The translations under genes were made by a program, and so were the position numbers. Source: Candidatus Komeilibacteria bacterium CG11_big_fil_rev_8_21_14_0_20_36_20 (lineage in GTDB: Bacteria; Patescibacteriota; Patescibacteriia; UBA1558; GWA2-36-10). From it: DNA of 64,000 nt. The first letter of the stretch is position 1. Each line of letters opens with the position of its first letter. Positions 34,744 through 53,994 of this stretch are shown one piece after another. Below the pieces are notes generated by a model that was given only the letters and a program-made list of their open reading frames with translations, did not search any database and had not been told where the DNA came from. The stretch covers positions 31,296 through 95,295 of the forward strand of contig PCWQ01000007.1 in the NCBI GenBank assembly GCA_002787405.1, written 5' to 3'.

Positions 34744-35553
34744 TTACAAAGAATTATACAATTTACTAATTATTTTTTGTGCATCTTCATCTACATTTAG
34801 ATATTTAGTTACAACTATTCGTAAAAATCTGATAGCTACCAAAGTGATATAAATAATAAAAAACCATTTTAAGAAATGACTACTATTAAAGAAATCAACA
34901 ACGTAAACCAGTAAAAACATAAATATCATTAAATCATTTCTAGCGATGATAGTTGAAAATTTAAGAATCTTTAATAGCTTTAATAATGCTCTATTAGCTG
35001 GTGTGATTTTCCTTTCCTGATTATGATATTGCCTAACCCATTCTATCTTCTTGAAAAACAACATAAAATAGATAAAAGTTGAGCTGATAGTATTAAAAAT
35101 AATTAAAACTACAACTAAAAGAGTTAAAAATAGATAAATATTGTCTTGATAAGTAAAAAATAATTTTAGTCCCAGACCAGTTAAAATACTCGGCATAAAA
35201 ACAAAATGGTAAACTTGTTCTAATAATCCCCCCCTTAAGGTGTCTCTTTTTAGATAACGAGCTAATTCCCCATCAACCTTATCCAAAAGAATACTCAGAA
35301 TAATTAAAATGAAAGCTAAAATATTTATACGAAAACTATGGTGGCGCAGCGTTAGGCCTCCAAGTATTATTAATATAATATTCAAGACGGAAATAAAATT
35401 AGGGTTTATTTTTTTATTAGTAATTAACAAAAAAAATTTTGTAATGTAAATAGAAATATCACGATATAATAAATATCCTGCCATACTAAACTTGGGTGGT
35501 TTATTTCTTTTACTAGCTTGGCAAATTTCTTTTAACTCTTTAATTGATTCCAT
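34744..35553 (-). CDS. polytopic membrane protein with a degenerate CDP-alcohol phosphatidyltransferase-like motif
   Basis: LDKVDGELARYLKRDTLRGGLLEQVYH matches D-x2-DG-x2-AR-x8-G-x3-(D>E)-x3-(D>H). Confidence 0.4.
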   Translation of the reverse strand: MESIKELKEICQASKRNKPPKFSMAGYLLYRDISIYITKFFLLITNKKINPNFISVLNIILIILGGLTLRHHSFRINILAFILIILSILLDKVDGELARYLKRDTLRGGLLEQVYHFVFMPSILTGLGLKLFFTYQDNIYLFLTLLVVVLIIFNTISSTFIYFMLFFKKIEWVRQYHNQERKITPANRALLKLLKILKFSTIIARNDLMIFMFLLVYVVDFFNSSHFLKWFFIIYITLVAIRFLRIVVTKYLNVDEDAQKIISKLYNSL

Positions 35554-36875
35554 TACTTTGTATATCTAAAATTAATTATAGGTGTTAAACTAAAAATTTT
35601 CTTCAAAATATTATTTTTCTCCAAAGCGGTCCAGACATATTCAGCTGCTTGACTCTGCTTTAAACTAACTGATTCTTTGTGCCGGAAAATTGAAAAATTA
35701 ATCTCATTCTTTAAAGCTATTTTTCTAACCTGATGATTAGTGTATTGATTTTTATTTTGCAATTCAGTAGTTGAAAAATTACTAGTGGCTTTTCCATAAC
35801 CATGGTCAGACAATTTTAATATCTCATTATTAGGTATTCCTCGGCCAACATAACTTTTCAAATTATATAACCCTGACAAAACCACCGGCTGATCATCCTT
35901 GACTAAATTAGCATTATTGGCATAAAGAAAATAAATACTGTCTTCTTTTTTTATTTCTTTGACAAAATCATGAGTGTGATCCGAAAAATAATTTAGATCA
36001 GTAATTTGATTCAAAACATCCTGCAACAACATAAAAGTAGTCAAACGAGTAGCCAAACCGTAATTTATCAAAACCTTAAGCGTATCTCTAAAAATATTAT
36101 AATATTTATTACCTTGATTAAGGCCGATAAATTCTGACCGATAAACTATTTTATTTAAAATTTCTGAATTAAGCACAGAGCTTGGGCCCCCTTGACCCAT
36201 ATGATAAAGAATAAAAATCTGCCCTTCTTTAACTCCCCATTTGCTGGCCTGTTCTTGGTCAAAAATCTCGTCAGCAACTTGAACTTCAATAAAATGATTA
36301 CCTTGCAGAAAACTCCCAATATTATTCCTTAAATATTGATGGCCATTTTTCCAATCATCATTAAAATAATCAAAAATATCTTTATTGATATTTGCTACTT
36401 GGGGAGAATCTACATTAAATATATTATCAACTGATTGTTTAAATTTACTCTGCAAATATGCCGGCCCTTGCAGACACACTTCATAAAACTCCTTCCGACT
36501 TAAAGAATATTTATTAGGCAAAGGACGTCTTAATTTAGAAAATATTCCTTTAATAAGGCCTTTATTAAAATTTAATAAAGCTTTTTCCAGCTTATCTATG
36601 GTCTCGGTGCTATAACTCAGTTCTGTTTTGATTAAAGACTTTCCGCAATTAATATTAACGGCGCTTAATTGGGGATACAAAATATCTCTACTTAGCGAAC
36701 CAAAACTGGATGGGATATATCCTTTGTACCCCATTCTGGCTCCTTCTTTTTTTAAATGTATATCAGGCAAAACTAAGAGCTCTTCTACGCCAGGCAAACT
36801 CGCTATCTCCTGAATTCTTTGCAAAAGTTTTGTTGATAATTTTTCCTTATCAATGGTAAATTTTATATTTGCCAT
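35553..36875 (-). CDS. divergent RtcB-family protein (RNA 3'-phosphate ligase fold) embedded in the glycan operon
   Basis: RtcB motifs were found in order: LPGVEELLVLPDIH (PDxH), AVNINCGKS (the D/N-I-N-C-G metal site), GNHFIEVQ, and HMGQGG in place of HSGSRG. Confidence 0.6.
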   Translation of the reverse strand: MANIKFTIDKEKLSTKLLQRIQEIASLPGVEELLVLPDIHLKKEGARMGYKGYIPSSFGSLSRDILYPQLSAVNINCGKSLIKTELSYSTETIDKLEKALLNFNKGLIKGIFSKLRRPLPNKYSLSRKEFYEVCLQGPAYLQSKFKQSVDNIFNVDSPQVANINKDIFDYFNDDWKNGHQYLRNNIGSFLQGNHFIEVQVADEIFDQEQASKWGVKEGQIFILYHMGQGGPSSVLNSEILNKIVYRSEFIGLNQGNKYYNIFRDTLKVLINYGLATRLTTFMLLQDVLNQITDLNYFSDHTHDFVKEIKKEDSIYFLYANNANLVKDDQPVVLSGLYNLKSYVGRGIPNNEILKLSDHGYGKATSNFSTTELQNKNQYTNHQVRKIALKNEINFSIFRHKESVSLKQSQAAEYVWTALEKNNILKKIFSLTPIINFRYTK

Positions 36876-37954: not shown

Positions 37955-39057
37955 AATTTAACAATCTGTTCTGTATTATCACTAAATTTTTCCCTCATTA
38001 ACTGACGCCCGTTTTCTCCTAGGCGCTCTGCTTCGGTTGGAGAATTTAATAAATATAAAATTTTATCAGCCATAGCTTGAGCGTCTCCGATCGGCACCAG
38101 CCAGCCGTTATAACCATCTCGCACTATTTCTTTGGCTCCGGTGGTGGCGGTTGCCACAACCGGCTTGCCACAGGCGTTGGCCTCCACTAATACTTTGCCG
38201 AAACTTTCAGAATCTGATGACAAAACAAACAAATCACAATTTCTATATTCTTTCGGTAAATCATCATGATCTTTGGCTCCTAATAATTCTATATAATCTA
38301 AACCAGCTGTTAATTTTTTTATTTTATCTTTTTCAGGCCCCGCACCAGCAATACGAAGTATGATATCCTTTCTTTTCTTATAAACAATCTCTATTGCTTT
38401 TATTAACAAAGGAATATTTTTAACTATTACCAATCGTCCTACCGAAAGAATAATTTTTTTATCTCTACTTTGTTTCTTTTCTACAGGTAAAGAAAACTTC
38501 TGTAAATCAACGGGCGTGGGGATTACTCGAATTTTATTTTCTCTAAGGCCAAAATTAATTAGCTTATCCTTAATGCCTTGACTCATTACCCGAATAGCGT
38601 CCGCTTGCCTAACGACCTTCTGGCCTAAAATCAATAACAAGCGATTATACCAATCTTCTCTCAGCCATAGTTTGTTGTCAAAAAAATCTCCGTGAAAATG
38701 GATTAACAACTGACAATTAAATTTTTTCTTCACCAAAGTGCCAACCAATCCTGTCAAAAAAGGATCCTGCGTCAAAACTAAATCAATTTTATTTTGTAAA
38801 CAAATATTCTTAGCAATCTTCCAGGCATCCCACAAAAAATTTATCTGATTAGCCGAATTAGTCGGATAAACAAAAACATTATGAGATAATTTTTTATTTT
38901 TTAAATTTAAACTTTTCTTAGCATAAGTAATAGAATGAATACTGTTAACATATTTACCATATTCTATATTGCGAATCTGCGCATCACCAAAATCCGGCTG
39001 ATTCATTGCCAAAGTCGGATCCCAGGAAACAGTCAAAATGTTAATTGCTCTAGCCAT
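37918..39057 (-). CDS. family 4 glycosyltransferase
   Basis: The GT4 motif reads FGKVLVEANACGKPVVATATTGAKEIV. Confidence 0.8.
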   Translation of the reverse strand: MARAINILTVSWDPTLAMNQPDFGDAQIRNIEYGKYVNSIHSITYAKKSLNLKNKKLSHNVFVYPTNSANQINFLWDAWKIAKNICLQNKIDLVLTQDPFLTGLVGTLVKKKFNCQLLIHFHGDFFDNKLWLREDWYNRLLLILGQKVVRQADAIRVMSQGIKDKLINFGLRENKIRVIPTPVDLQKFSLPVEKKQSRDKKIILSVGRLVIVKNIPLLIKAIEIVYKKRKDIILRIAGAGPEKDKIKKLTAGLDYIELLGAKDHDDLPKEYRNCDLFVLSSDSESFGKVLVEANACGKPVVATATTGAKEIVRDGYNGWLVPIGDAQAMADKILYLLNSPTEAERLGENGRQLMREKFSDNTEQIVKFWEDIIEQKLPR

Positions 39058-40493
39058 TATGTTTTTCTAATAAGATTATAAATTTTTCTTAAAGCTTTAC
39101 CTAAAACGCCTTTCTGCTCAATGGCGATGCCTGATAAATATTCCACAGCGTAAATATCAAGGGCTAAGCCAAAAAAACGATGACGGATCCTCCACTCAAA
39201 CCAGCTGATCACTGGACCTAATCTCCAATTTAAAAATTTAAAATATTCCCGAATGCGCCAGACCTTTTTAACGTCAGTCCAAGGCGATTCAAAATTCTTG
39301 CGAAAACGATCTATTTTGCCCCAATCCTCGGTTCTGGTTGGCGGCTGAAAACCGCTTTCTATGGCAAAATCATACATTTTTGAACCAGGATAAGGCAAAT
39401 AAGCCCCAAGGGTAAAAACGGCCTGCGGATGAATTTTATAGATTTGATACAATAAATCAATAGTTGACTCAAACTCTTCTTCGGTCTCTGTCGGCAGTCC
39501 AACAATCACCGAATAGCTGGCCGGCAAATCGTATTTTTTTAAGATTTTCACTGCTTCAATTATTTTGTCTGTCGTGAATTTTTTGTCTATTAACTTCAAT
39601 AAACGGTTACTGCCAGATTCAACGCCAATAAGCATATCAAACACCCGATACTCTTTTAATTTCGCCGCTACCTCATCATTAATGGAATCAATCCTAATCT
39701 CCAGATGGGAAGGCAGATTAATGCGTTCTAATATTTCCAGAGCCCGATACTTATTAACAAAAAAATTATCATCATAAAATTTAATGGCGTCAATATTGTA
39801 TTTTTCTTTTAAAAAGTTAATATCCTCAACCACCGCATCAATAGACCAAGTGCGCCATTTATTTTTATTAAAGGCATTATTATAACAAAAAGCACAATTA
39901 AAAGGACAACCGCGGGAACTTTTATAAGCAATCGCCCTTTTATACTTTCCTAAAGGGAAAATAAATTTAGACATGTCAATTAAAGAAAAATCTAAACGGT
40001 ATTGATCAAGATTTTCTATAAAAGGCCGCCAAGGATTAATCACCGGCTGATTATTCTTTTTATAACCAACGCCCAACACTCCTTCCATTTCTTTCTGATC
40101 TACAATCCGCTGGGTAAACTCAACCACACTGATTTCACCCTCGGAAATAATAACATAATCAATATAATCTTCCTGCAGACATTGTTCTGGTAAAAGTGAA
40201 GGATGGATACCGCCCCACAAAACAGGAATGGAACTTTTGGCTTTAATCCTTTGTGATAACTCGGCGCTGTGTTGAGTTTGGATACCGGTCATGATCGACA
40301 AACCAAAATATAACGGCTTTTCTTTAACAATATAATCAGCCGTGTCATTAATTTCTTTTTCAGTAATATTAATCAACTCTACCGTAAAACCTGCTTCTTT
40401 TAGAGCACTGCCCACGCATAAAATCCCCATTGGCAGAATCTTCTCTGAATGATCTTGACTATAATTAATTTGCGCTAAAATAATCTTAGGCAT
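39057..40493 (-). CDS. cobalamin-binding radical SAM enzyme
   Basis: A B12-binding-like N-terminal domain is followed by CPFNCAFCY. Confidence 0.8.
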   Translation of the reverse strand: MPKIILAQINYSQDHSEKILPMGILCVGSALKEAGFTVELINITEKEINDTADYIVKEKPLYFGLSIMTGIQTQHSAELSQRIKAKSSIPVLWGGIHPSLLPEQCLQEDYIDYVIISEGEISVVEFTQRIVDQKEMEGVLGVGYKKNNQPVINPWRPFIENLDQYRLDFSLIDMSKFIFPLGKYKRAIAYKSSRGCPFNCAFCYNNAFNKNKWRTWSIDAVVEDINFLKEKYNIDAIKFYDDNFFVNKYRALEILERINLPSHLEIRIDSINDEVAAKLKEYRVFDMLIGVESGSNRLLKLIDKKFTTDKIIEAVKILKKYDLPASYSVIVGLPTETEEEFESTIDLLYQIYKIHPQAVFTLGAYLPYPGSKMYDFAIESGFQPPTRTEDWGKIDRFRKNFESPWTDVKKVWRIREYFKFLNWRLGPVISWFEWRIRHRFFGLALDIYAVEYLSGIAIEQKGVLGKALRKIYNLIRKT

Positions 40494-40498
40494 ATTCT

Positions 40499-41941
40499 CT
40501 ACTTGGTGACAAATTTCTTAGCTAGTTTAAATTCTAATGGAAAAGCAAAAAACTTTAATTTCCATCTCAACTTGCATAAGAGCACAAAAACTAATTTAAT
40601 CAATTTTTGCGCCTTAATGCTGGAGCCCATCGCGCTACTGATACTATGCGCGCCAAATCTAACATAGGCCTCCATTGATTCCACAAAATCTTTATGCTTG
40701 ACCCAAGGAAAATTTTGGACAGTTAAATAACTTAATTCATTTTCTACTAAGTGCGCCCATGCTTCTGAGTTTTGTGGAGCTTTCCAGCCAGCGGCCAAAC
40801 ATTCCTGATATAATTCTGATCCAGGATATGGCCGAAAAGCTTGTGGGCCTAAAATCTGCACTTTATTATCTAATTTAATCAACTTGTCAATCAAATCCAA
40901 GGTCATTCTCATATCTTTTTTGGATTCACCGGGCAAACCAATCATAAAAGAATATTGCGGGATAATATCATATTTTAAACACATCTTAGCTGAATGTAAA
41001 ATTTCCGCCGGTGTAATATCTTTTTTAATTTTTTTTAAGATAATCGGACTACCTGACTCCGCGCCAAAAGATAATAAATAACAACCTGACCTTTTCAGTT
41101 TTGCCATTAACTGATCATCAATCCTTCCTTCTCTAATATAATTAGCCCTGACTGTTGTTTCCCAAGGAATAGTTAATCCTTTTGCAATCATACCTTCGAT
41201 AATTTTCTTTGATCTTTCAATATCCACAAAAAAATTTTCGTCCCAAAAACGCAATCTCTTACCTTTAAAATAATCTTTCTCCTTAATTATTTTGATATCT
41301 TCCAAAACCTGCCCCACTGTGCGATATCTCCACCTATTCTTCAAAATGGCATTAATACAAAAAGTACATCTGTGTGGACATCCTCTCGAAGTTAAAGAAG
41401 GAATGATATCTAATTTATACAAAATACTCTTAGGCATTAGATCCCATTTAAATAAAGGCATCTTGGCCGGATCATGTAATTCCTGAGGCGGATTAATAAC
41501 AATGCTGCTATCTTTATAGGCAATGCCTTGAATTTTATTTAAATCCTTATGACTGGCGATCTCATACAAAGTATGTTCTCCCTCACCCACACAAACAATA
41601 TCCACTAAGGGATGGTCAATGGTCTGCTCAACAAAAAATGTTGGGTGCGAGCCCCCCCAAATAATCGTGCAGTCTGGCTTAATATCCTTAATAAATTTAC
41701 TAACTTCCAAAGCATTGGAAATTTGAGTGGTCATCACGGAAATGCCAGCATAATCACAGTCAACAATCTTTTCTTTTATTAAATCAAAATAATTCTTTTC
41801 ACGAGCACCATCAACAATCTCCACCGGCATGTCTTTACTATTCAAATAACTAGCTAAACTTAACAAGCCAACCGAAATTGAGCTGTCATAATTTTCTTTG
41901 GCAATATTAAAAGGTGGATTGATTAATAAAACTTTACTCAT
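40499..41941 (-). CDS. cobalamin-binding radical SAM enzyme
   Basis: A B12-binding-like N-terminal domain is followed by CPHRCTFCINA. Confidence 0.8.
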   Translation of the reverse strand: MSKVLLINPPFNIAKENYDSSISVGLLSLASYLNSKDMPVEIVDGAREKNYFDLIKEKIVDCDYAGISVMTTQISNALEVSKFIKDIKPDCTIIWGGSHPTFFVEQTIDHPLVDIVCVGEGEHTLYEIASHKDLNKIQGIAYKDSSIVINPPQELHDPAKMPLFKWDLMPKSILYKLDIIPSLTSRGCPHRCTFCINAILKNRWRYRTVGQVLEDIKIIKEKDYFKGKRLRFWDENFFVDIERSKKIIEGMIAKGLTIPWETTVRANYIREGRIDDQLMAKLKRSGCYLLSFGAESGSPIILKKIKKDITPAEILHSAKMCLKYDIIPQYSFMIGLPGESKKDMRMTLDLIDKLIKLDNKVQILGPQAFRPYPGSELYQECLAAGWKAPQNSEAWAHLVENELSYLTVQNFPWVKHKDFVESMEAYVRFGAHSISSAMGSSIKAQKLIKLVFVLLCKLRWKLKFFAFPLEFKLAKKFVTK

Positions 41942-41942
41942 G

Positions 41943-43097
41943 CTACACTTCTTTTAACAATTTTACTGTTTCATTAATTGTATTTTCCCAATTAAATTTC
42001 TTTAAAGTTAACTTAGCATTATTAACTAAATTATCAGCAAATTGTTCATCACTTAATATTTTGATAGCTGCATTCTTTAATTCTTCAATATTATTATAAC
42101 CAATTAATAAACCATTTCTATGATTCTCAATAACTTCCGGGTTACCTCCAATATTAGTTGTAATGATTGGAACGGCTGCTTTAATAGCTTCTAATAAAGT
42201 ATGTGATAAACCTTCATAATTTGTATTTAAAACAAATAGATCTGCTGCCTTAAAATAATTGATAATTTCATCATGTCTAATTCTGCCCAGAAAATGAACA
42301 CTATCGGCAACGTTGAATTCATTGGCTAGATGCTTTAAATTATCCATTTCCGGACCATCTCCCAAAACAAGAAAATTAACGTTACCTATTTTTTGTTTAA
42401 TCTGTGGTAAGGATTTGATAATCCCATCAACTCCTTTCCAGCGGGTAAGCCGACAGGCGGTAACAATTATCTCTGCATCCTGACCATATTGTTTTTTAAT
42501 TTCTTCAACTTTATCTAGTTGAACAACGTTGTCTTTAATAAAATCTATGGAATTATAAATAACTTTAATTCTATCTTTATCAACACCAATTTTTTCAGCG
42601 ATCATGGCAATAAAATTACTAACGGCAATAATTCTATTGGCATTAACCAAAATTTTCTGCCTTCTCTTTTTTAACCTTTCAATCTGATCATTATAAACCT
42701 TATCCTGAAAATCAACGATGTAATCCTGAGTCCAACCGCTGGCTACGGCCATCTCCCAAGCTCCGTCACCGGCAAAACGCACAATATATTTCTTACCGGT
42801 CATCTTTTTAATTAAGTAAGCAAAATATCCGACGCTATAAGTATCGGTAACATAAATTAAATCTGCCTGGCGTGACAATCTGAACATCTTCCATAAATAC
42901 TGCCAACGGCTAAAAAATTTATTTTTGACAATTCTAAAAACTTCTTCCCTATCATTATTATGTTTTTTAATATTGGAATAAGTAATTATCTGTACACTTA
43001 AACCTTTCTCCTTTAAAGAATAGGAAAGGGCTTCCAAAATTGTTGCTGGTCCTCCAATATCCGGCGGATAAATACCTGTTGCGATTAAAATTTTCAT
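41943..43097 (-). CDS. family 4 glycosyltransferase
   Basis: The GT4 C-terminal domain reads EGLSHTLLEAIKAAVPIITTNIGGNPEVI. Confidence 0.8.
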   Translation of the reverse strand: MKILIATGIYPPDIGGPATILEALSYSLKEKGLSVQIITYSNIKKHNNDREEVFRIVKNKFFSRWQYLWKMFRLSRQADLIYVTDTYSVGYFAYLIKKMTGKKYIVRFAGDGAWEMAVASGWTQDYIVDFQDKVYNDQIERLKKRRQKILVNANRIIAVSNFIAMIAEKIGVDKDRIKVIYNSIDFIKDNVVQLDKVEEIKKQYGQDAEIIVTACRLTRWKGVDGIIKSLPQIKQKIGNVNFLVLGDGPEMDNLKHLANEFNVADSVHFLGRIRHDEIINYFKAADLFVLNTNYEGLSHTLLEAIKAAVPIITTNIGGNPEVIENHRNGLLIGYNNIEELKNAAIKILSDEQFADNLVNNAKLTLKKFNWENTINETVKLLKEV

Positions 43098-43202
43098 AAT
43101 TTCTATTTATAATTTATAGTAGCAACCCTGAGCGACCTCGAGTCTGTGAAGAGGGAGTCGAAGGGTGGCGATTAAAATTTTCATAATTTCTATTTATAAT
43201 TT
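43081..43202. repeat. 35-bp perfect direct repeat (43081..43115 and 43168..43202) flanking a 52-bp GC-rich insert
   Basis: The sequence gcgattaaaattttcataatttctatttataattt occurs twice. It contains the start codon plus 18 nt upstream of the GT4 gene at 41943..43097. The intervening sequence is about 60% GC in a background of about 30% GC. Confidence 0.85.
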
Positions 43203-43923
43203 TCTTAAAAATACACACTAATGCTTGACCATAATTTTTAAACATAGGCAGTTTACAAAAATAATTATCAATAGTATGAATAAACTTATTAGAAAACCAA
43301 AATCTTGGTATCTTTAAATAATGAAGTGGAGGAAACAAAGTGCTGGCTCTGGAATCAACTAAAACGAAGTTTTGCTTCTCCATAATCTCAATCCATTTTC
43401 TTAATTTAAAATCATATTGATGTTGATTAGGGTCCCACCCTTCTTTATAAACCGTCTTGCCTTTTCTTCTAATAATTTTACGCCCGACAAATCGAAATAA
43501 ATTTTCCCATTTATCATGCATGGCCGGAAAAGTAATTAATACTTCTCCATCATCTTTTAATAACCTATAAATCTCACTTACTAACTTATCTGGATTAATA
43601 ACGTGCTCGATAATATCAATAGCAATACATTTATCAAAGGGTTCATCTAAAGGTAAATCTTCTACATTGGCTTCCCTGGCCTCAAAATTATCTATTTCAT
43701 AATATTCCATCAATTTTCGGGCGGTTTCTAAACTCTTAGAATTTATATCAACGCCTACCATTCTCTTAAAATTTCCTTTGTAGGTCAGCGCCTGTACACC
43801 GTCACCACAACCAACATTCAACACGGAATCTTCTTTGTTGATTGGAAAAAATTCTGGATAAATAACCCCCGATGTTAATTTCCCTTTTTTAAATTCAAAG
43901 TCTGGATATTTTCTTTCTCGCAT
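43114..43923 (-). CDS. class I SAM-dependent methyltransferase
   Basis: LNVGCGDGVQALTY and LKDDGEVLITFP are present. The last 17 aa or so are encoded by the GC-rich insert and the second repeat copy. Confidence 0.7.
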   Translation of the reverse strand: MRERKYPDFEFKKGKLTSGVIYPEFFPINKEDSVLNVGCGDGVQALTYKGNFKRMVGVDINSKSLETARKLMEYYEIDNFEAREANVEDLPLDEPFDKCIAIDIIEHVINPDKLVSEIYRLLKDDGEVLITFPAMHDKWENLFRFVGRKIIRRKGKTVYKEGWDPNQHQYDFKLRKWIEIMEKQNFVLVDSRASTLFPPLHYLKIPRFWFSNKFIHTIDNYFCKLPMFKNYGQALVCIFKKIINRNYENFNRHPSTPSSQTRGRSGLLL

Positions 43924-45142: not shown

Positions 45143-46342
45143 ATGCCTAATCTTAGCAAAAAAGATAAATTAAAAAACCAAAAAATCCTCTTCTTAATCA
45201 CCCAAACTAAGTGGGGTGGAGCCCAGAAGTATGTTTTAGAATTGGCTGAATACTTTAGCCAAAACAATGAAATTCACCTGACCTATGGAGAAACTGATAA
45301 TATTAACCAGCAGTTTCTAAATTATTGTAAAGAATTAAAAATCAAAACCATACCAATCCCCACTTTACACAGGAAAATAAATTTTACCAAAGATTTCCTA
45401 GCCATAGTCGATACGCTCAAAATTTTGAATAAAGAAAATTATAATTTAATTCACCTCAATAGTTCTAAAGCTAGTTTTGTCGGCAGCGTGGCTGCTAAAA
45501 TGTACAGCTATAACCCAGCCAACACAAAAACGCGGGTTGTTTACACGGCTCATGGCTTTGTCTTCAATGAACCATTGTCTAAAATAAGAAAAAAGGCATA
45601 TATCTTTTCAGAAAAAATAGCGGCTGCTTTTCAATATTTAATCATTGCTGTTTCTGAAACCGACCGGCAAAGTGCTATTGACCAGCAAATATGTAATCCT
45701 AATAAAATTTTCACCGTGCACAACGGCTTGAATTTTGATAAATATAATTTTTATAGTAAAGAAGAAGCCAGAAATAAATTAAATTTATCAGCAGATAAAA
45801 AATATTTTGGCACGATTGCCAGCTTTTATGAAACTAAGGGCTATGAATATTTAGTAGAAGCCATTAAAATACTGCGAAATAAACAGTCTCAAATCTTAAA
45901 AAATTATCAGTGGGTCTTAATTGGTGAAGGACCAAATCTAGAAAAAATAAAAAAACAAGTCGCAGACAATAATTTGTCTCCCTACATTAAATTTATTCCT
46001 GCTCAAGATAATGACTGGAAATTTTTAAAAGCTTTTGACTGTTTTATTTTGCCTTCAATCAAAGAAGGCCTGCCTTATACTATTCTGGAAGCTGGCTTAG
46101 CTCAAATTCCGATCATTGCCACCAAAGTTGGCGGTCTTCCTGAAATCATTACCAATGAAAAAACCGGCTTATTGATAACGCCGGCTAATCCTCTCTCTTT
46201 AGCGCAAGCTATGGAAAAAATGTCTCAAGATCATGATCTCTCTGAAAAATTTGCAGAAAGCAACTATCAAAATATTAAAAATAATTTTAATCTCCAAAAT
46301 ACTTTAGATAAGACTGAAGAACTATATTTAAAATTATTTTAA
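45143..46342 (+). CDS. family 4 glycosyltransferase
   Basis: EGLPYTILEAGLAQIPIIATKVGGLPEII. This is the only plus-strand gene in the right half of the cluster, divergent from 43926..45068. Confidence 0.8.
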   Translation: MPNLSKKDKLKNQKILFLITQTKWGGAQKYVLELAEYFSQNNEIHLTYGETDNINQQFLNYCKELKIKTIPIPTLHRKINFTKDFLAIVDTLKILNKENYNLIHLNSSKASFVGSVAAKMYSYNPANTKTRVVYTAHGFVFNEPLSKIRKKAYIFSEKIAAAFQYLIIAVSETDRQSAIDQQICNPNKIFTVHNGLNFDKYNFYSKEEARNKLNLSADKKYFGTIASFYETKGYEYLVEAIKILRNKQSQILKNYQWVLIGEGPNLEKIKKQVADNNLSPYIKFIPAQDNDWKFLKAFDCFILPSIKEGLPYTILEAGLAQIPIIATKVGGLPEIITNEKTGLLITPANPLSLAQAMEKMSQDHDLSEKFAESNYQNIKNNFNLQNTLDKTEELYLKLF

Positions 46343-46908
46343 CCTTCGAGGTCGATTTCAACTAATCTTCTGATATAAACATCTAAATTCTTAGTATACT
46401 CTTGAAAGTCAACTAGATAATCCTGGTTGACTAATTTAAATTTTGCTCGATGAATATAATCATAATGGGAGCTGTAGAGCCAATCATTAATATTCTTTGT
46501 TAACTTATGTTTAAGCGGATTTAGATTAATATAACTAATGACAGTCTCAAGATAATTATCATCTTCGACAAGTTTAGACTTAAATGAACCCGCAAAAATT
46601 CTCCCTGAATGCTCTTTATGTATATTAAAATATTTACTATAAGAATTAGATAAAAGTGAAATAAAACGAGATATAGCTGATGATTCGACCTTCGAGGTCA
46701 AATCCGGCTCTTGCAATAGAAAATGCCAATGGTTGGGCATTACGCAATAAGCTAGAATTTTAACATGCGTTTTTTCTTTATAAAATAAAGCTTTTTCAAG
46801 AAAATAAGTATAATCTTGCTCCGTATAAAAAATAGTCCTTTTTTCCACCGCACGATTATAAATATGGTGGATAGTATTGGGGAAAAAATTTCTTGGTTTA
46901 TTAGGCAT
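46339..46908 (-). CDS. IS200/IS605-family Y1 (HUH) transposase-like protein, probably a REP-associated tyrosine transposase (RAYT)
   Basis: The HUH motif reads CVMPNHWHFLLQ. A C-terminal WLYSSHYDY (W-x-SS...Y) is present. 189 aa. The gene is flanked by palindromic repeats. Confidence 0.75.
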   Translation of the reverse strand: MPNKPRNFFPNTIHHIYNRAVEKRTIFYTEQDYTYFLEKALFYKEKTHVKILAYCVMPNHWHFLLQEPDLTSKVESSAISRFISLLSNSYSKYFNIHKEHSGRIFAGSFKSKLVEDDNYLETVISYINLNPLKHKLTKNINDWLYSSHYDYIHRAKFKLVNQDYLVDFQEYTKNLDVYIRRLVEIDLEG

Positions 46909-46919
46909 AAAACAAAATC

Positions 46920-46950
46920 AACCTCGAAGGTTGTTTCAACCTTCGAGGTT
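46920..46950. repeat. REP-like hairpin: 13-bp perfect stem (aacctcgaaggtt / aaccttcgaggtt) with a 5-nt loop, immediately 5' of the RAYT gene
   Basis: Inverted repeat verified by eye. Related copies of aaccttcgaggtc lie at 46341..46355, 46686..46700 and 47023..47036. Confidence 0.8.
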
Positions 46951-47033
46951 ATAAATCAAAAATAAAAAAACCGCTTTTCTTCATATGTAAAATAATATCC
47001 AAATCTTACAATATTGTCAACCAACCTTCGAGG

Positions 47034-49307
47034 TCAAGACGGCTGAAACTCGCCGTTTTTAATTCTCTCGATAAAATCTTCGGATTGAGTCAAATATGGC
47101 TCGCCGAATTTTTTAACTTCTTCAGCAATAGCAATGGCCTGATCATTCATCCCCAAACTAGCGTAGGATAAAGCTAAACTAATATAATACTGGGGATTCT
47201 CTGAATACTGCTGCCTCAAAATATCGTAAAAATAAGCCGACCAAGTAAAATCTTGGGCGTTGACTGCTGCACTGGCCATGCGGTTCAAGGGTTCCTCTTG
47301 TTTATAATTCAAATTCATTGAATCCATGGTTTCAAGATATGGCTGCACTTTATCCGGCTGATGACTGGCCAATAAAACCATAACCATATTAATATAAGAT
47401 TCTAAAACATCGTCATTCAAATCTATGGCTTTTTGAAAATTAACCACCAAATCGCTCTGATACTTAGCGGCTTCTTCTGGTTTGCCCTGATCTGTCAGCC
47501 ATAAATAAAGATACAAATCAGCATAGCCCATTTCCTCATAAATTTGCAGTCTAGTAGGACTATATTTTAAAGCCGTTTCTCCCAACGGAAAAACTTTATA
47601 CAATCTATTTGGATCTAAAACATAAGTATAGTTATAATGACGCATAAATAACAAATAATTAGCTACGTCAGCTGGATTTTCTGCAATGCGTTTTTCCAAT
47701 TCCTGATCTATATGTGTGACATACTGTGTGGCATTATAGGGCGTAATTAACTGATGAACAATTAAACCATCAACAAATTCAACAACTCTTCTCCTAAATT
47801 CATTGGTGCCGGAAGTACGGTAATCAATTGCCTGAAAATAAGTATTAACCGCCTGAGGAACATCAACATTTTCCAAATGCAAGGCATCAATCACAGTCAA
47901 ATTGGCTTTAGCTTCTTTAAGATTAACCCAATACATAATTGGACCCAAGGCAATAAGGTAAACCACCAAAATAGCCGCCATAACTTTACGTCCAGTGAAC
48001 TCAAATTTAGGTTTGGTATATTTTTGAGCTATCAAAACTATAATCAAAAACAAAGGTAGATAAGTAACCATGGCCTCAAAAACAAAAATTCCTTGAACAA
48101 TAAAAGCTATAATGGCTAGAGCCAAAATTTGATTGCCAAAATCAATATTTTTTGATTCCTCTTTTCTCCCAGCCGTTGCTTTCTTTAAAACTATATAAAG
48201 CGGCCATAATATTAAAAGACTATACAAAAGCAAACCAATAATGCCCCCCGTAACTAAATGATCAAGAAAAATATTATGAGCTCGGTCAAACCAAACTTGT
48301 GAACCGGCGTGTGAATATATTTCCGGATTAAAATACTTGTTAAAAACAACAGAAAAATTTTCCTGACCATAACCCAAAATCGGCTTTTCTTTAAATCCCT
48401 GCCAAGCGGAATTCCAGGTCATTAAACGGGTCTGGGCGGTTCTTTCTGATAAAGAAATACTGGTCATTCTCCTTAGAGCTTCATTATTCTGAATAAAATC
48501 GCTTGAGCGATTGACATAGATAACGGCGCCCAGCACACACAAAATCAACCCCAGAGCAATTAATGAATATTTGATTTTTTTATGGCTTATTCGAAAAATA
48601 TTGTAGATAACAAAAATCAAGGCACTAGCTAAAATTGCCACAAAAGCACCACGAGTACCGGTCTGAACCATGACAAACAAATCAATCAAAATGGCCACAA
48701 TATAATAAATACTTAAATACTTATTGTGACGTTTAATCATCAAATAAAGACCAAAAAAGACCGCCAACAAAGAATAACCAGCCAGATAAGCAGCATTACC
48801 AATAGTCGAAGCGACCCGACCATCAGTCACTCCTGTTCTATTAATAAAATCAACATTAAAATACTGCAACAAGCCGATTAAGACCACTATTTGAGCGGCA
48901 ACGAAAAATACTTCCCATAAAAATAGCCACTCTTTTCGGTTGGAGATAAAATTACGCAGGATAAAAAATAAAATAAACATGTGAGACCAGAGCAAAAGGC
49001 CTTCTGATCTCTCAATATTACTCCAGAAGCTAAAATAAAAATTATCACCCAGTAAAGAGGAAAGAAACATAGAAACCAATAAGATAAAAAAGACAATCGT
49101 CAGCCAATCAATTTTAACCTTAATTTCTTTCTTCACTAGAACGTAAATGAGCCACAATAAGAGCAAGACTTCCACTAAAATTCTAAAAGCCAGGGCTTTA
49201 CTGTAAATATAGGGAAAGAAAAAATTACTATTAATATAAATAGGGGTCAGCATAATTAGAATCAAAGCTGACCAAATAAGCTTGGAAAATATTTTATCTG
49301 CTTTCAT
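47034..49307 (-). CDS. O-antigen ligase-like (Wzy_C) polytopic membrane protein with C-terminal TPR repeats; paralog of 2625..4739
   Basis: 757 aa. Shared blocks with 2625..4739 include FSFWSNIERSEGLLLW and QTGTRGAFVAILAS. The C-terminal half is TPR-like and soluble. Confidence 0.65.
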   Translation of the reverse strand: MKADKIFSKLIWSALILIMLTPIYINSNFFFPYIYSKALAFRILVEVLLLLWLIYVLVKKEIKVKIDWLTIVFFILLVSMFLSSLLGDNFYFSFWSNIERSEGLLLWSHMFILFFILRNFISNRKEWLFLWEVFFVAAQIVVLIGLLQYFNVDFINRTGVTDGRVASTIGNAAYLAGYSLLAVFFGLYLMIKRHNKYLSIYYIVAILIDLFVMVQTGTRGAFVAILASALIFVIYNIFRISHKKIKYSLIALGLILCVLGAVIYVNRSSDFIQNNEALRRMTSISLSERTAQTRLMTWNSAWQGFKEKPILGYGQENFSVVFNKYFNPEIYSHAGSQVWFDRAHNIFLDHLVTGGIIGLLLYSLLILWPLYIVLKKATAGRKEESKNIDFGNQILALAIIAFIVQGIFVFEAMVTYLPLFLIIVLIAQKYTKPKFEFTGRKVMAAILVVYLIALGPIMYWVNLKEAKANLTVIDALHLENVDVPQAVNTYFQAIDYRTSGTNEFRRRVVEFVDGLIVHQLITPYNATQYVTHIDQELEKRIAENPADVANYLLFMRHYNYTYVLDPNRLYKVFPLGETALKYSPTRLQIYEEMGYADLYLYLWLTDQGKPEEAAKYQSDLVVNFQKAIDLNDDVLESYINMVMVLLASHQPDKVQPYLETMDSMNLNYKQEEPLNRMASAAVNAQDFTWSAYFYDILRQQYSENPQYYISLALSYASLGMNDQAIAIAEEVKKFGEPYLTQSEDFIERIKNGEFQPS

Positions 49308-53100: not shown

Positions 53101-53994
53101 ACCTCTTTGAACAACCATTGTGTCAATGGTTACTCCTTCGCTACCGGTGGTTAATTTAAGTTTGGTGAAAGGATATCTAGCGGCACCTTCAACTACAATG
53201 CCGGAAGCTGGCGTATCGCTAGCCAATGACACTGTTAGGTCGCCACCAGAAACTGGTCCACCGCCTTCACCCGGCATATAACCTGCCAGTTCTGTTTCTT
53301 CACCGGTGATTGATTCGCCGGTTGAATAACCATCTACGTTAGCCACGTCAATAACATAGTCATAACTAAAGTTATTGGCTTCAAAGGCATCAGAAGTAGC
53401 AAATGGTCGGACTGTATCGCCTTCACCGACATAATACAAATCCTCGCCCACCTGCAGCAATGTACCTTCTGGATACATAGTGCTTAAATCAGAACCAGTG
53501 GTATAGCTGGATGAAAAATAACCTGGGATAACATCTAGAACTCTAGATCCCCAATCGGCACCATACAAATCTTCAGCCACGTCTCCTGTAGGAATCCAGT
53601 GGAGTGTTCCACCCGGACCAACAGCATAAATTTTGGCTGTATTCATATGGGTAACCAATTTGGTTCCCGGTCGATAAGTCACGGCGCCGCCGTCTGCATA
53701 CAAATCCAGTTCAGCTACGTTAACTCTGACCACATTGTCAAAGTTATCATACCAAGTATTATATGTTTTTCCATCTGGGAAAACATATTTCATACCATCT
53801 GAACCAATGTAATAAACAGCTGCACCAGATTGACCTTCTAAGGCAAGCAAAGAGCCTGCTCCGTAATTACCAGCGGCTTTGGCTACTGGCGCAAAAGATA
53901 CGCCAACTGACCAAAGGGCAGTGGTAATCACCAAAGAAAATACAGCAAATTTCTTTAATAAGTGCATGTTTCTTTTTTTTAAAAAAGTCCCCAA
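50191..53994 (-). CDS. large secreted Thr/Ser/Gly/Ala/Val-rich surface protein (S-layer or adhesin-like, repeated beta-sandwich-like modules)
   Basis: 1267 aa. The signal-peptide-like N-terminus reads MGTFLKKRNMHLLKKFAVFSLVITTALWSVGVSFAPVAKAAG. Two related modules of about 90 aa are followed by more than 1000 aa of low-complexity T/S/G-rich repeats. GC content is about 45% against about 30% elsewhere. Confidence 0.7.
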   Translation of the reverse strand: MGTFLKKRNMHLLKKFAVFSLVITTALWSVGVSFAPVAKAAGNYGAGSLLALEGQSGAAVYYIGSDGMKYVFPDGKTYNTWYDNFDNVVRVNVAELDLYADGGAVTYRPGTKLVTHMNTAKIYAVGPGGTLHWIPTGDVAEDLYGADWGSRVLDVIPGYFSSSYTTGSDLSTMYPEGTLLQVGEDLYYVGEGDTVRPFATSDAFEANNFSYDYVIDVANVDGYSTGESITGEETELAGYMPGEGGGPVSGGDLTVSLASDTPASGIVVEGAARYPFTKLKLTTGSEGVTIDTMVVQRGGIGQDAAFSTIDVLDGSTMIPFDQNSKTFNSNHQATFTKDVVIPANTTQYIYLAGNMAASLDSYAGENPALGLASITLKGSGSVIGSLPAYGNTQTLNHTITIGTATVQRGSYNNASSTTIEVGKQDYTFFAFQIQAGSVEDVTFNQVSVYQEGTASLSEDLSGYALLKDGTKIADGVVDGKYINFSIAATTIPKGQTYQYQVQADVESGSARTVDLGIYRTTDLLVKGNTYGYNITPTYSGTGSAATKPVLSANEFQIANGNMTVERGSSVGADNVTVGSDQTLGAFKFTVKGEPIDVTELTLTIVSSSGAQIEDALEGVKIVDSNGVTVAGPTDITNDALTVAFTDTFTLPVGESEYTIMGNLNISGGWATDDTIYARLATAASAITATGQVTGNSITASPAANVDTNTQTVKAANLTVTRNTLPANATVIAGAQDVLVGSWNFDGTNSGEDIRITSIVVHASSTNFTNLTIYDGVFGSGGVAKSPVNDAPADNDGYDSASSTFAFDDPIVLTKGTSKTIQLIADVNTGAVAEQVGIFGLVDVSTTANASVIAYGVTSGNRGIVTLTADMGATMTVATAGTLTISTYNNPSAAIVRAGATGVTFGNIRLEAFNENLDLDQLKVFVADGNITGTATGNYQDVSKVYLYDGSTLLGSAAIPSTGYYTFNFPNNTLTIPQDGSKTITVKADLGTISSSADNAPGTPGADVRFGLGGTDGVKTTGVDSNDVVTSETYNGSTTTGMVLHKALPTVTHSTASAPLGAATSLTNGAIDLYAFNVAADASGNEVLLYRATLTVATGGTINVTSCYLRDSDGNVVGTAADPTDLDGGDGYGGYNTYTFDNPLISHSDELEPLQISAGSSETYYYNCTIALAGTGENVSVAMLGDTASSTSSDGYGNPTTDINTNYADAWGALNQGNFVWSDNYKGRGIDTTGATATEYGQWYNGYLVSGLGAVTTSTPSYTISWSG

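What the first reader, a model, noticed from the sequence alone, without database searches (positions are those of the whole stretch)
43081..43202. 35-bp perfect direct repeat duplicating a gene start, around a GC-rich 52-bp insert that extends a methyltransferase ORF
The first 17 nt of the GT4 CDS (41943..43097) plus 18 nt upstream are repeated exactly, 87 bp further upstream. In between is a 52-bp segment of about 60% GC (gcaaccctgagcgacctcgagtctgtgaagagggagtcgaagggtg) in a background of about 30% GC. The insert carries a cgacctcgag core resembling the REP repeats near the RAYT at 46339..46908.

The insert and the second repeat copy now encode the last 17 aa or so of the methyltransferase (…HPSTPSSQTRGRSGLLL). 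They also create a second in-frame-start mini-ORF (MKILIATLRLPLHRLEVAQGCYYKL).

This looks like a small mobile or REP-like insertion with a long target duplication, or a recombination footprint.
Basis: seen in the sequence. Interest (0 to 1): 0.55.

Follow-up and report, generated by a model that had tools for sequence, protein, structure and literature searches.

The report
Solo palindromic repeat insertion with 35-bp duplication
A 52-bp GC-rich hairpin from a widespread family of small repeated DNA elements was inserted between two sugar-pathway genes of a candidate-phyla-radiation bacterium, duplicating 35 bp of the target so the downstream gene kept its start; it is a real but fairly ordinary insertion scar, and only the long duplication is unusual.

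Summary
An exact 35-bp direct repeat (43081-43115 and 43168-43202) flanks a 52-bp segment of 56% GC (core 62%) in a 33% GC genome, Candidatus Komeilibacteria, CG11 Crystal Geyser MAG.

It is not an assembly artefact. The identical structure occurs in independent ENA and JGI assemblies.

It is not ancestral coding sequence. About 120 methyltransferase homologues end 1-7 residues after the conserved FKK. Four relatives with the same gene order have the methyltransferase abutting or overlapping the GT4 gene, with no insert and one copy of the gene start.

The insert is not an orphan. It belongs to a dispersed family with the form CCTGAGCG(A/G) - variable hairpin - GAGTCGAAG(G/A). My covariance model scores it at 40 bits (E about 1e-9). 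The family fold is a hairpin with tandem G.A mismatches, supported by covariation. It is multi-copy in GC-rich IMG/VR contigs, has a second candidate-phyla-radiation (CPR) copy in L013, and is absent from Rfam.

It differs from the ACCTTCGAGGT hairpins that flank the neighbouring RAYT gene. It is the only copy in about 84 kb of this genome.

No other family member shows a flanking duplication. How the 35-bp duplication arose is therefore unresolved. A CRISPR-type ectopic integration is unlikely.

The parts
43081..43115 (-). Direct-repeat copy 1. It holds 18 nt upstream of the GT4 start (ribosome-binding region) plus the first 17 nt of the functional GT4 CDS. Its first two bases, together with the last base of the insert, form the TAA stop of the methyltransferase (43116-43114).
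43116..43167 (+). 52-bp inserted segment, 55.8% GC. It consists of about 10 nt of 5' lead (ATAGTAGCAA), the hairpin element, and 2 nt.
   Evidence: absent from the related loci L004, L005, L049 and L050
43126..43165 (+). Core of the repeat-family element: CCCT GA GC GA CCTC-gagtctgtgaa-GAGG GA G(t)C GA AGGG. The fold has an outer stem, a tandem G.A, a GC/GC step with a bulged T, a second tandem G.A, and an apical hairpin. The G.A-bearing strand is the + strand, which is antisense to the operon. The model match spans 43121-43171.
   Evidence: (40 bits, E 1.1e-9)
43168..43202 (-). Direct-repeat copy 2. This duplicated GT4 start region is now read in another frame as methyltransferase residues IINRNYENFNR. 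It also supplies the ATG (43184-43182) of the mini-ORF.
43114..43923 (-). Class I SAM-dependent methyltransferase ORF of 269 aa. Residues 242-269 (28 aa) are lineage-specific read-through of copy 2 and the insert.
41943..43097 (-). GT4 glycosyltransferase gene. Its start region was duplicated, and it keeps an intact start codon and upstream region.
43107..43184 (-). 25-aa mini-ORF created by the duplication. It has the same start context as GT4 and stops 9 nt before the GT4 ATG. It is probably a by-product.
46339..46908 (-). RAYT-like IS200-type Y1 transposase gene, 3.2 kb away, with its own ACCTTCGAGGT mini-hairpins at 46342, 46688, 46921, 46939 and 47024. It is context only; involvement in the insertion is not shown.

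Best explanation
The 52-bp segment is a single copy of a dispersed, REP-like DNA hairpin element. The family signature is CCTGAGCG(A/G) - variable apical hairpin - GAGTCGAAG(G/A), and the stem is interrupted by tandem G.A mismatches.

**Shown.** In the lineage of this Komeilibacteria species the element entered the very tight methyltransferase/GT4 junction of a surface-glycan operon. With it, 35 bp of target were duplicated: the GT4 ribosome-binding region plus its first 17 nt. As a result:
- GT4 keeps an intact start downstream of the element.
- The methyltransferase frame now runs through the upstream repeat copy and the element. It gains 28 unrelated residues and stops at a TAA formed at the element/repeat junction, 16 nt before the GT4 ATG.
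- A 25-codon mini-ORF appears as a by-product.

**Inferred.** The event was a one-off, non-canonical insertion and not the element's normal way of moving. The hairpin DNA was joined in at two strand breaks 35 nt apart in this 20% GC stretch, and both single-stranded copies were filled in or retained. One possible route is ligation between a nascent lagging-strand 3' end and a displaced 35-nt flap. A plain insertion anywhere in these 35 bp would have destroyed the GT4 start, so only an event with a duplication would survive selection.

The nicking and joining enzyme is unknown. The Y1/HUH RAYT 3.2 kb away is a candidate, but it is not implicated by sequence.
For: **Real, and fixed in every assembly found**
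- The identical repeat-insert-repeat occurs in ENA ERZ27293344 and JGI 3300025124 contigs.
- The 269-aa methyltransferase with the tail is indexed in 48 blocks of the collection. Its 90% identity cluster has a single member sequence.

**Insertion, not ancestry**
- In the 15 homologues aligned, the protein stops 1-7 residues after FKK. The 120 listed hits are mostly 235-250 aa and cover 84-91% of the query.
- L004, L005, L049 and L050-52 keep the order GT4-MT-GT4-rSAM-rSAM. Their MT/GT4 junctions range from an 8-nt overlap to a 5-nt gap. None has the insert or a second copy of the gene start.

**Family membership**
- A second CPR copy lies at L013:16703-16749.
- A degenerate scan of IMG/VR returned 34 loci. 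Most carry the full signature tGTCAT(C/T)CTGAGCG...GAGTCGAAG(G/A)A(T/C)C. Several are multi-copy or in inverted pairs.
- Model R1 gives 54 hits (46 distinct) in 278 kb, with the window copy at 40 bits.

**Structure**
- 89% of cells form standard pairs, against 75% in shuffles.
- Compensatory changes occur at pairs 7-52 (CG/UA), 6-53 and 17-41 (CG/GC/UA/AU), with almost no mispairs. Slid controls collapse to 30-50% paired.

**Composition and strand**
- The insert is foreign in composition: 56-62% GC against 33%.
- GC skew is negative on the + strand and genes lie on the - strand. The G.A strand is therefore on the nascent lagging strand, which fits the flap idea (inference).
Against: - No other family member examined has a flanking direct repeat of 8 nt or more. 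The duplication is therefore not explained by the element's own mechanism.
- From established knowledge, Y1/HUH-mobilised elements (IS200/IS605, REP/REPIN) insert without target duplication.
- The element is single-copy in about 84 kb of this genome, so activity here is unproven.
- No empty-site allele or closer relative (above 81% protein identity) was found, so the event cannot be dated or its steps ordered.
- A simple excision of insert plus one repeat leaves the methyltransferase with no in-frame stop. It would be 289 aa and overlap GT4 by about 110 nt. At least one more change must therefore have occurred, probably a 1-nt slip in the A-run at the repeat boundary; removing one A gives ...FKKL*, 242 aa.
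- Single-sequence folding energies are only modestly better than shuffles: RNA z about -2.3, DNA z -1.3.
Confidence: 0.6

Rival explanations
1. Two-step or recombinational origin. The element first sat between the methyltransferase and an intact GT4 start, giving the allele 'MT-element-35-GT4'. That allele is viable: the MT would be 261 aa and stop at a TAG 5 nt before the ATG. The 35 bp then appeared on the other side by illegitimate or unequal recombination with an element-free allele, by homology-facilitated illegitimate recombination after DNA uptake, or by template switching at the stable hairpin. Alternatively, a 35-bp tandem duplication arose first and the element landed at its junction.
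For: - The intermediate allele reconstructs to an intact gene pair.
- Other family members have no target duplication, so a separate origin for the repeat is reasonable.
- The locus lies in a 45-kb glycan-biosynthesis island. From general knowledge, such regions recombine often.
- The missing in-frame stop in the simple empty-site reconstruction already requires more than one event.
Against: - There is no useful microhomology at either novel junction. Only 'AC' follows a mismatch.
- No intermediate allele and no donor locus was found in any collection.
- It needs two rare events at exactly the same 35 bp.
Confidence: 0.25
2. Ectopic, CRISPR-type integration. A Cas1-Cas2-like integrase inserted a short foreign DNA at a non-CRISPR site and duplicated the 35 bp between its two attack points. 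That would create a repeat-spacer-repeat 'proto-CRISPR'.
For: - The geometry (short foreign-composition insert between about 35-bp exact duplications) is what spacer integration produces. This is established knowledge. Off-target integration and spontaneous array birth are discussed in PMC6698737, citing Nivala et al. 2018, and in PMC11788318.
- A review table lists CasY (Cas12d) in Komeilibacteria (PMC8894546).
Against: - The insert is 52 bp (49 if the repeat is taken as 38). From memory, that is well above usual spacer lengths.
- It is a complete member of a repeat family with element-like boundaries, not a random protospacer.
- No protospacer match exists in IMG/VR, phages or plasmids.
- The window and its 10-kb flanks hold no CRISPR array and no cas gene.
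- The only CRISPR-repeat hit in Rfam scores 18 bits against a gathering score of 47, E 2.3.
- From memory, CasY arrays have about 26-nt repeats and 17-19-nt spacers.
Confidence: 0.05
3. The element is a bona fide REP of the neighbouring RAYT and was moved here by it.
For: - A RAYT-like Y1 transposase lies 3.2 kb away.
- The second CPR copy (L013) lies 6 kb from that genome's RAYT orthologue.
- The RAYT mini-hairpin ACCT-CGA-AGGT shares CCT...CGAAGG with the family's outer stem. The insert also contains GACCTCGA, the first 8 nt of GACCTCGAAGGTT.
- GTAG lies 3 nt before the hairpin.
Against: - The hairpins that flank RAYT orthologues in three genomes are a different, much shorter motif, (G)ACCT-NNN-AGGT(C).
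- Two further RAYT loci, L053 and L056/57, hold no clear family member within 10 kb. The best hit is 13 bits.
- The rest of the family has TGTCAT, not GTAG, at the 5' side.
- From established knowledge, Y1 transposition makes no duplication.
Confidence: 0.08
4. Assembly artefact or ancestral coding sequence.
For: A 35-bp repeat is of k-mer size. The segment lies inside an ORF.
Against: - Independent assemblies from different pipelines and samples are identical.
- All homologues lack the tail, and four relatives are empty sites.
Confidence: 0.02

Closest known systems
REP / REPIN elements and their RAYT transposases (Bertels & Rainey 2011, PMC3116915; PMC3337134; PMC5581495)
   Same: It is a short GC-rich imperfect palindrome. 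The family is dispersed and multi-copy in some genomes, often as inverted pairs and tandem clusters (L022, L029, L031). It lies mostly between genes. A single-copy RAYT-like gene flanked by its own hairpins is present in the window.
   Different: - It is single-copy in the sampled 84 kb of this genome.
- It is not the motif that flanks the resident RAYT.
- The conserved 5' lead is TGTCAT, not GTAG.
- The stem carries conserved tandem G.A mismatches.
- This copy has a 35-bp target duplication, which REP/REPINs are not known to make.
Rickettsia palindromic elements (RPE): palindromic repeats inserted in frame into protein genes (from memory: Ogata et al. 2000)
   Same: A selfish palindromic repeat ends up translated as part of a host protein without destroying it. 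Here it adds 17 of the 28 extra C-terminal residues of the methyltransferase. In L020/L038 another family member is translated inside a signal-peptide region.
   Different: RPEs are 100-150 bp, multi-copy in the same genome, unrelated in sequence, and have no long target duplication.
Off-target Cas1-Cas2 spacer integration ('spontaneous CRISPR loci', Nivala et al. 2018, cited in PMC6698737 and PMC11788318)
   Same: A short insert of foreign composition is flanked by an exact duplication about 35 bp long, the length of a CRISPR repeat.
   Different: The insert is too long for a spacer. It is a repeat-family hairpin. No cas genes or array are in reach, and no protospacer was found.
MITEs with target-site duplications (for example Correia and ERIC; from memory)
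   Same: A small non-autonomous palindromic insert flanked by a direct duplication of the target.
   Different: MITE duplications are 2-10 bp and occur at every copy. Here the duplication is 35 bp and occurs at this copy only.
Extraordinarily stable DNA mini-hairpins d(GCGNAGC) with sheared G.A pairs (from memory: Hirao and co-workers)
   Same: Many family members have GCGAAGC, GCGTAGC, GCGCAGC or GCGGAGC as the apical hairpin, with tandem GA/GA steps along the stem. This suggests the element acts as single-stranded DNA.
   Different: The window copy has a CCTC/GAGG stem with an 11-nt loop in place of a GNA mini-loop. No functional test exists.

Membership tests
Tandem-G.A hairpin repeat family defined here (model R1) | Conserved arms CCTGAGCG(A/G) and GAGTCGAAG(G/A) in this order on one strand | tested here: met
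   Window 43127-43164 carries both arms exactly. R1 scores the match at 40 bits, E 1.1e-9.
Tandem-G.A hairpin repeat family defined here (model R1) | Fold: outer stem, GA/GA, GC/G(T)C, GA/GA, variable apical hairpin | tested here: met
   The window copy fits every pair of the consensus: CCCT/AGGG, GC/GtC, CCTC/GAGG. The family shows covariation.
Tandem-G.A hairpin repeat family defined here (model R1) | Conserved 5' lead TGTCAT and 3' A(T/C)C | tested here: not met
   The window has TAGCAAC and GTG, and L013 has ATGTC and CAC. The CPR copies diverge at the tips.
REP / REPIN | Short imperfect palindrome repeated many times in the same genome | tested here: inconclusive
   The palindrome requirement is met. 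Only one copy was found in the window plus 20 kb of flanks, about 84 kb. The rest of the roughly 1-Mb genome could not be fetched.
REP / REPIN | The same sequence flanks the genome's RAYT gene | tested here: not met
   The RAYT is flanked by ACCTTCGAGGT hairpins, a different motif that is conserved at RAYT orthologues.
REP / REPIN | Extragenic location | tested here: not met
   The element now lies inside the methyltransferase ORF, although the ancestral site was a gene junction.
REP / REPIN | Insertion without target duplication (Y1/HUH single-strand mechanism) | tested here: not met
   A 35-bp exact duplication flanks this copy.
CRISPR repeat-spacer-repeat unit made by Cas1-Cas2 | cas1/cas2 and a CRISPR array in the genome, with repeat length equal to the duplication | not testable with these tools
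   None in the window or its 10-kb flanks.
CRISPR repeat-spacer-repeat unit made by Cas1-Cas2 | Spacer-sized insert (about 26-45 bp) derived from a mobile element | tested here: not met
   The insert is 52 bp. It has no match in IMG/VR, phages or plasmids beyond a 22-nt chance hit. It is a repeat-family member.
MITE | Target-site duplication of fixed short length at every copy | tested here: not met
   No flanking repeat of 8 nt or more at the other family members examined; the one 8-nt match found lies about 60 nt out on each side.
Any Rfam RNA family | Covariance-model match at the gathering score | tested here: not met
   No hit for the window at the gathering threshold. Nothing relevant at E up to 10 around the insert. 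Nothing at E up to 0.1 in seven family-bearing loci.

The most novel reading that the evidence does not exclude
The repeat-insert-repeat could be a fresh, undecayed footprint of how this undescribed family of tandem-G.A hairpin elements (or REP-like elements generally) enters DNA. One route is a single-stranded hairpin joined into the nascent lagging strand at a displaced flap. Another is joining by an integrase with widely spaced active sites. Either would leave a duplication of about 35 bp that is normally lost or never fixed. In the extreme version it is a natural off-target Cas1-type integration in a CPR bacterium, that is, the birth of a proto-CRISPR unit.
Probability: 0.1. Interest if true: 0.7.

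Novelty: new member of a known kind. Interest (0 to 1): 0.35.

Why it matters
This is a clean natural example of a selfish palindromic repeat landing in the most constrained spot of an operon. In relatives the two genes are 8 nt overlapping to 5 nt apart. The insertion was tolerated only because the downstream gene's start was duplicated, and it gave the upstream enzyme a 28-residue tail.

It also led to a widespread hairpin repeat family with conserved tandem G.A mismatches. The family occurs in GC-rich IMG/VR contigs and, sporadically, in Patescibacteria. It is not in Rfam, and I could not find it in the literature by sequence.

How REP-like elements are inserted is poorly documented, so a copy with an intact, unusually long duplication is a small but concrete lead. 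For genome annotation, the practical lesson is that the methyltransferase C-terminus and the mini-ORF are insertion by-products.

Tried and rejected
- **Other copies in the window.** Exact and 3-mismatch searches and blastn-short found none.
- **REP identity with the RAYT hairpins.** Rejected. The ACCTTCGAGGT motif occurs only at 46342-47034 and is not in the insert.
- **Rfam.** Nothing for the whole window, the region at E up to 10, or family-bearing loci. The CRISPR-DR50 hit is 18 bits against 47. ARAGORN was run only on L013.
- **Intrinsic terminator or promoter at the element.** No terminator. The promoter-like hits simply reflect the AT-rich repeat.
- **Protospacer or donor search.**
  - Two 20-mers in IMG/VR gave one chance 22-nt match, in a 60% GC contig.
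  - A central 22-mer gave 0 hits in genome contigs and metagenome contigs. These collections evidently do not hold the source genome, so the negative is weak.
  - blastn against phages and plasmids found nothing useful.
- **Empty-site allele.** A 45-mer spanning the reconstructed junction gave 0 hits in both large collections. No methyltransferase variant of at least 90% identity exists in the protein collection.
- **Literature by sequence string.** No relevant paper. Nivala et al. 2018 (PMC5832444) is not held.
- **Association of the family with RAYT loci.** Two of the four RAYT neighbourhoods in hand (window, L013) carry a copy; L053 and L056/57 do not. This is inconclusive.
- **Assembly artefact and ancestral coding.** Both rejected, as set out in the report.
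Full report
**1. The observation**

Reading 42900-43400 and running the repeat finder confirm the finding. An exact 35-bp direct repeat lies at 43081-43115 and 43168-43202, 87 bp apart. It extends to 38 bp with one mismatch.

With up to three mismatches these are the only two matches in the window, and shuffles gave none. It is the only high-identity short-range direct repeat of at least 20 bp in all 64 kb; the one other family found is 77% identical.

On the minus strand each copy reads AAATTATAAATAGAAATT-ATGAAAATTTTAATCGC. That is 18 nt of upstream region plus the first 17 nt of the GT4 glycosyltransferase gene at 41943-43097.

The 52 bp between the copies (43116-43167) are 55.8% GC. The 40-nt core is 62.5% GC, against 30-35% in the flanks and 33.4% overall.

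The methyltransferase (MT) ORF 43114-43923 ends IINRNYENFNR (copy 2) plus HPSTPSSQTRGRSGLLL (insert). Its TAA stop is built from the last insert base and the first two bases of copy 1. The 25-aa mini-ORF at 43107-43184 exists as described.

**2. Organism and context**

The MT and RAYT proteins are named by NCBI as hypothetical proteins COV55_01060 and COV55_01075 of 'Candidatus Komeilibacteria bacterium CG11_big_fil_rev_8_...'. A flanking contig belongs to GCA_002788435.1.

The window from about 2.6 to 49 kb is one long minus-strand glycan-biosynthesis island. It holds GT4 and GT2 transferases, several B12-binding radical SAM enzymes, methyltransferases, NeuB, epimerases, Wzy-type ligases and an ABC exporter. 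Ribosomal-protein and pilus genes lie beyond the ends.

There is no CRISPR array and no cas gene in the window or in 10 kb on either side.

**3. Not an artefact, not ancestral**

The exact 269-aa MT is indexed in 48 blocks of the assembly collection, and the GT4 protein in 44. Contigs from ENA ERZ27293344 (k141-type names) and JGI 3300025124 carry the repeat-insert-repeat base for base.

The MT's 90% identity cluster has one member sequence, and the next hit is only 81% identical. No empty-site allele is therefore on record. A 45-mer spanning the reconstructed empty junction found nothing in either large collection.

The 120 MT homologues listed (50-81% identity) are mostly 235-250 aa. In the alignment of 15 of them, all stop 1-7 residues after the invariant F239/K241 (FKKKI*, FVKNKDL*, FKKQNK* and so on). 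The window protein carries 28 further residues.

Four related loci keep the order GT4-MT-GT4-rSAM-rSAM, with the MT stop between 8 nt inside and 5 nt before the GT4 start:

| Locus | MT protein | Identity to window MT |
|---|---|---|
| L004 | P0002 | 80% |
| L005 | P0003 | 81% |
| L049 | P0009 | 72% |
| L050-52 | P0016 | 67% |

None has the insert or a second copy of the gene start. This is an insertion.

**4. A wrinkle in the reconstruction**

Deleting the insert plus one repeat copy leaves the MT frame open for 48 codons beyond FKK. The protein would be 289 aa and overlap GT4 by about 110 nt.

Removing one further A from the A-run at the repeat boundary gives ...FKKL* (242 aa), with the TAA 9 nt before the ATG. 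That looks like the relatives. At least one more small change (a 1-nt slip) accompanied or followed the insertion.

An allele with the element but without the upstream repeat would also be viable. Its MT would be 261 aa, stopping 5 nt before the ATG.

**5. What the insert is**

It is unique in the window. It has no match in Rfam, phages or plasmids. In IMG/VR it gave only a chance 22-nt match.

A central 22-mer gave no hit in the genome or metagenome collections. Those scans did not even return the source locus, so they say little.

The lead came from the RAYT. I fetched the locus of a 64%-identical RAYT orthologue from an 847-kb Patescibacteria contig (L013). There I found CCCTTCGACTC...TCGCTCAGG, the same 11-mer and 9-mer as in the insert, in the same order and at similar spacing, in an intergenic GC island beside two tRNA-Ser genes.

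A degenerate scan of IMG/VR for CCTGAGCGA-N(8-36)-GAGTCGAAGG returned 34 loci. A handful look like chance coding matches. Most share a much longer signature, tGTCAT(C/T)CTGAGCG(A/G) - variable segment - (G)GAGTCGAAG(G/A)A(T/C)C. They often occur several times per contig, as inverted pairs or as tandem clusters.

**6. Structure of the family**

In every member the variable segment is itself a hairpin. The conserved arms can pair as follows:
- CCU with AGG;
- 5'-GA-3' opposite 5'-GA-3';
- GC with G(U)C;
- a second GA/GA step;
- then the apical stem, often GCGAAGC, GCGTAGC, GCGCAGC or GCGGAGC.

On a 22-sequence alignment, 89% of cells form standard pairs, against 75% in shuffles and 30-49% when partners are slid. 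Clean compensatory changes occur at pairs 7-52 (CG 18, UA 4), 6-53 and 17-41 (CG 9, GC 9, UA 2, AU 1, UG 1; no mispairs).

A covariance model built from this alignment (R1) finds 54 matches (46 distinct) in 278 kb of fetched DNA. The covariation pattern is the same, with the caveat that this second alignment is fitted to the model.

The window insert scores 40 bits (E about 1e-9) and fits every pair: CCCT GA GC GA CCTC-loop-GAGG GA GtC GA AGGG.

Only one strand carries the G.A steps. In the window that is the + strand, antisense to the operon. It folds better than the mRNA-sense strand: -19.3 against -15.4 kcal/mol as RNA, and -8.2 against -5.3 as DNA. Single-sequence z-scores are modest.

From established knowledge, tandem sheared G.A pairs and d(GCGNAGC) mini-hairpins are unusually stable in single-stranded DNA. 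This is why I lean towards a DNA-level, REP-like element and away from an RNA gene. That step is inference.

**7. Relation to the RAYT**

The Y1 transposase gene at 46339-46908 (PF01797) belongs to a clade that is widespread in Patescibacteria, with mostly one listed protein per contig, and JGI annotates several members as RayT.

It is flanked, and even interrupted, by ACCTTCGAGGT / AACCTCGAAGGTT mini-hairpins. Five copies all lie within 46342-47034, where 0.36 are expected by chance.

The same kind of motif sits at the RAYT orthologues in L013 and L053: (G)ACCT-NNN-AGGT(C). That is the RAYT's cognate hairpin, and the insert does not carry it.

The two share CCT...CGAAGG, and the insert contains GACCTCGA, but this is thin. 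Of the four RAYT neighbourhoods in hand, two hold a family member (window, L013) and two do not (L053, with a best hit of 13 bits, and L056/57). I therefore do not file the insert as a REP of this RAYT.

**8. Copy number here**

With filters off, R1 finds no second copy in the window; the next hit is 14 bits. It finds none in the 20 kb of flanks or in the relatives' loci. In the roughly 84 kb of this genome that I could see, the element is solitary.

**9. How the 35-bp duplication arose**

None of the other family members examined has a flanking direct repeat of 8 nt or more. By established knowledge, Y1/HUH-mobilised elements insert without duplication. The repeat is therefore special to this event.

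The insert begins and ends close to the family's own boundaries, with at most about 4-10 nt extra on one side and 2 nt on the other. This argues for insertion of an element and against capture of a random fragment.

My preferred reading, about 35-40% on its own, is a one-step aberrant insertion at two strand breaks 35 nt apart in this 20% GC stretch. One route is the hairpin strand being joined between a nascent lagging-strand 3' end and a displaced 35-nt flap. The + strand has persistently negative GC skew and most genes are on the - strand. The G.A strand would therefore be on the nascent lagging strand.

The main rival, about 25%, is a two-step history: unequal or illegitimate recombination between alleles with and without the element, or a tandem duplication followed by insertion. 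Neither novel junction shows useful microhomology.

A Cas1-Cas2-type ectopic integration would give exactly this geometry. Off-target integration and spontaneous array birth are documented (PMC6698737 and PMC11788318, both citing Nivala et al. 2018). CasY systems are reported in Komeilibacteria (PMC8894546). Against it:
- the insert is too long for a spacer;
- it is a repeat-family hairpin;
- no cas genes or arrays are in reach.

I give it about 5%.

Whatever the route, selection explains why we see this form. Any insertion into these 35 bp without a duplication would have removed the GT4 ribosome-binding site or start codon.

**10. Consequences**

Shown:
- GT4 keeps its start.
- The MT gains a 28-residue non-homologous tail.
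- A mini-ORF with the GT4 start context ends 9 nt before the real ATG.

Inferred only: the hairpin in the polycistronic mRNA could modulate relative expression or coupling, as REPs do in enterobacterial operons (general knowledge). No terminator-like feature is present at the element.

**11. Verdict**

This is a real, fixed, lineage-specific insertion of a solitary REP-like hairpin, with an unusually long target duplication. It is a new member of a known kind of element. The repeat family itself appears uncatalogued: it is absent from Rfam, and sequence strings returned no relevant paper. Interest is moderate to low. The 35-bp duplication is the only feature a specialist would stop at.

Noticed in passing
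L015-L047 (IMG/VR contigs), e.g. L029:880-2080, L031 (at least 10 copies), L022:380-502: There is a large, apparently uncatalogued family of GC-rich hairpin repeats: tGTCAT(C/T)CTGAGCG - variable hairpin - GAGTCGAAG(G/A)A(T/C)C. It has conserved tandem G.A steps and GCGNAGC-type apical loops. Copies occur as inverted pairs with TGTCAT...ATGACA tips and as tandem clusters. It has no Rfam match, and no paper was found by sequence.
   Followed up: partly
L020:212-330 and L038:~4420-4500: A family member lies inside the 5' end of an ORF. It is translated as CHPERPERSGGSRRT between the start and the hydrophobic signal-peptide-like segment of a 313-aa protein. This is another case of the element being absorbed into coding sequence.
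   Followed up: no
window 46342-47034; L013:9869-9895, 9957-9970, 10569-10581; L053:9864-9915, 10192-10245, 10587-10629: RAYT orthologues (52-64% identical) in different Patescibacteria are each flanked by mini-hairpins (G)ACCT-NNN-AGGT(C). In the window and L053 one also lies inside the coding sequence. The loop triplet differs between genomes (TCG/CGA against CGC/GCG). In three loci (L013, L056, L057) plus two gene tables returned without DNA, the gene sits in conserved synteny between a T4SS-like block and recG. In the window and L053 it sits beside GT4 genes instead.
   Followed up: partly
window 43196-43210 (minus strand ...TTTAAGAAAATTATAAATAG): The reconstructed empty site has no in-frame stop for the methyltransferase. 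An extra A in the A-run exactly at the repeat boundary is the simplest explanation, so a second small mutation accompanies the insertion.
   Followed up: yes
L013:16780-16830 and 17100-17210: Next to the second CPR copy lies a diverged partner in inverted orientation (CCATGAGCAGA-GTTCTGCAAAGCAGAAC-GGAGTCGAATGG), directly abutting tRNA-Ser(GCT). Further on, a partial duplicate of the tRNA-Ser(TGA) 5' half (CAAGACCGCCGCATTCGACC...) looks like an old integration scar.
   Followed up: no
window 14987-18150, 39057-41941 (and L050): The glycan island holds at least four B12-binding radical SAM enzymes interleaved with GT4 transferases and methyltransferases. The gene order GT4-MT-GT4-rSAM-rSAM is conserved in L004 and L049, and L050 carries the same gene set in another order. 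The pathway is uncharacterised.
   Followed up: no
window 50191-53994: A 1267-aa ORF with a TTG start lies in a stretch of 42% GC, against 33% elsewhere, and the locus table lists no Pfam family for it. It follows an ECF sigma factor and a DUF5667 gene.
   Followed up: no
window 35553-36875: An RtcB-type RNA ligase gene is embedded in the glycosyltransferase cluster.
   Followed up: no
L053:1468-1514 and L053:15895-16158: A weak relative of the hairpin family lies in an intergenic gap: GAGCGAAACTTCGCGAAGCGAGGTGAAGTCGA, 13 bits, without the outer CCT/AGG stem. A small GIY-YIG gene lies in the same RAYT/GT4 neighbourhood.
   Followed up: no
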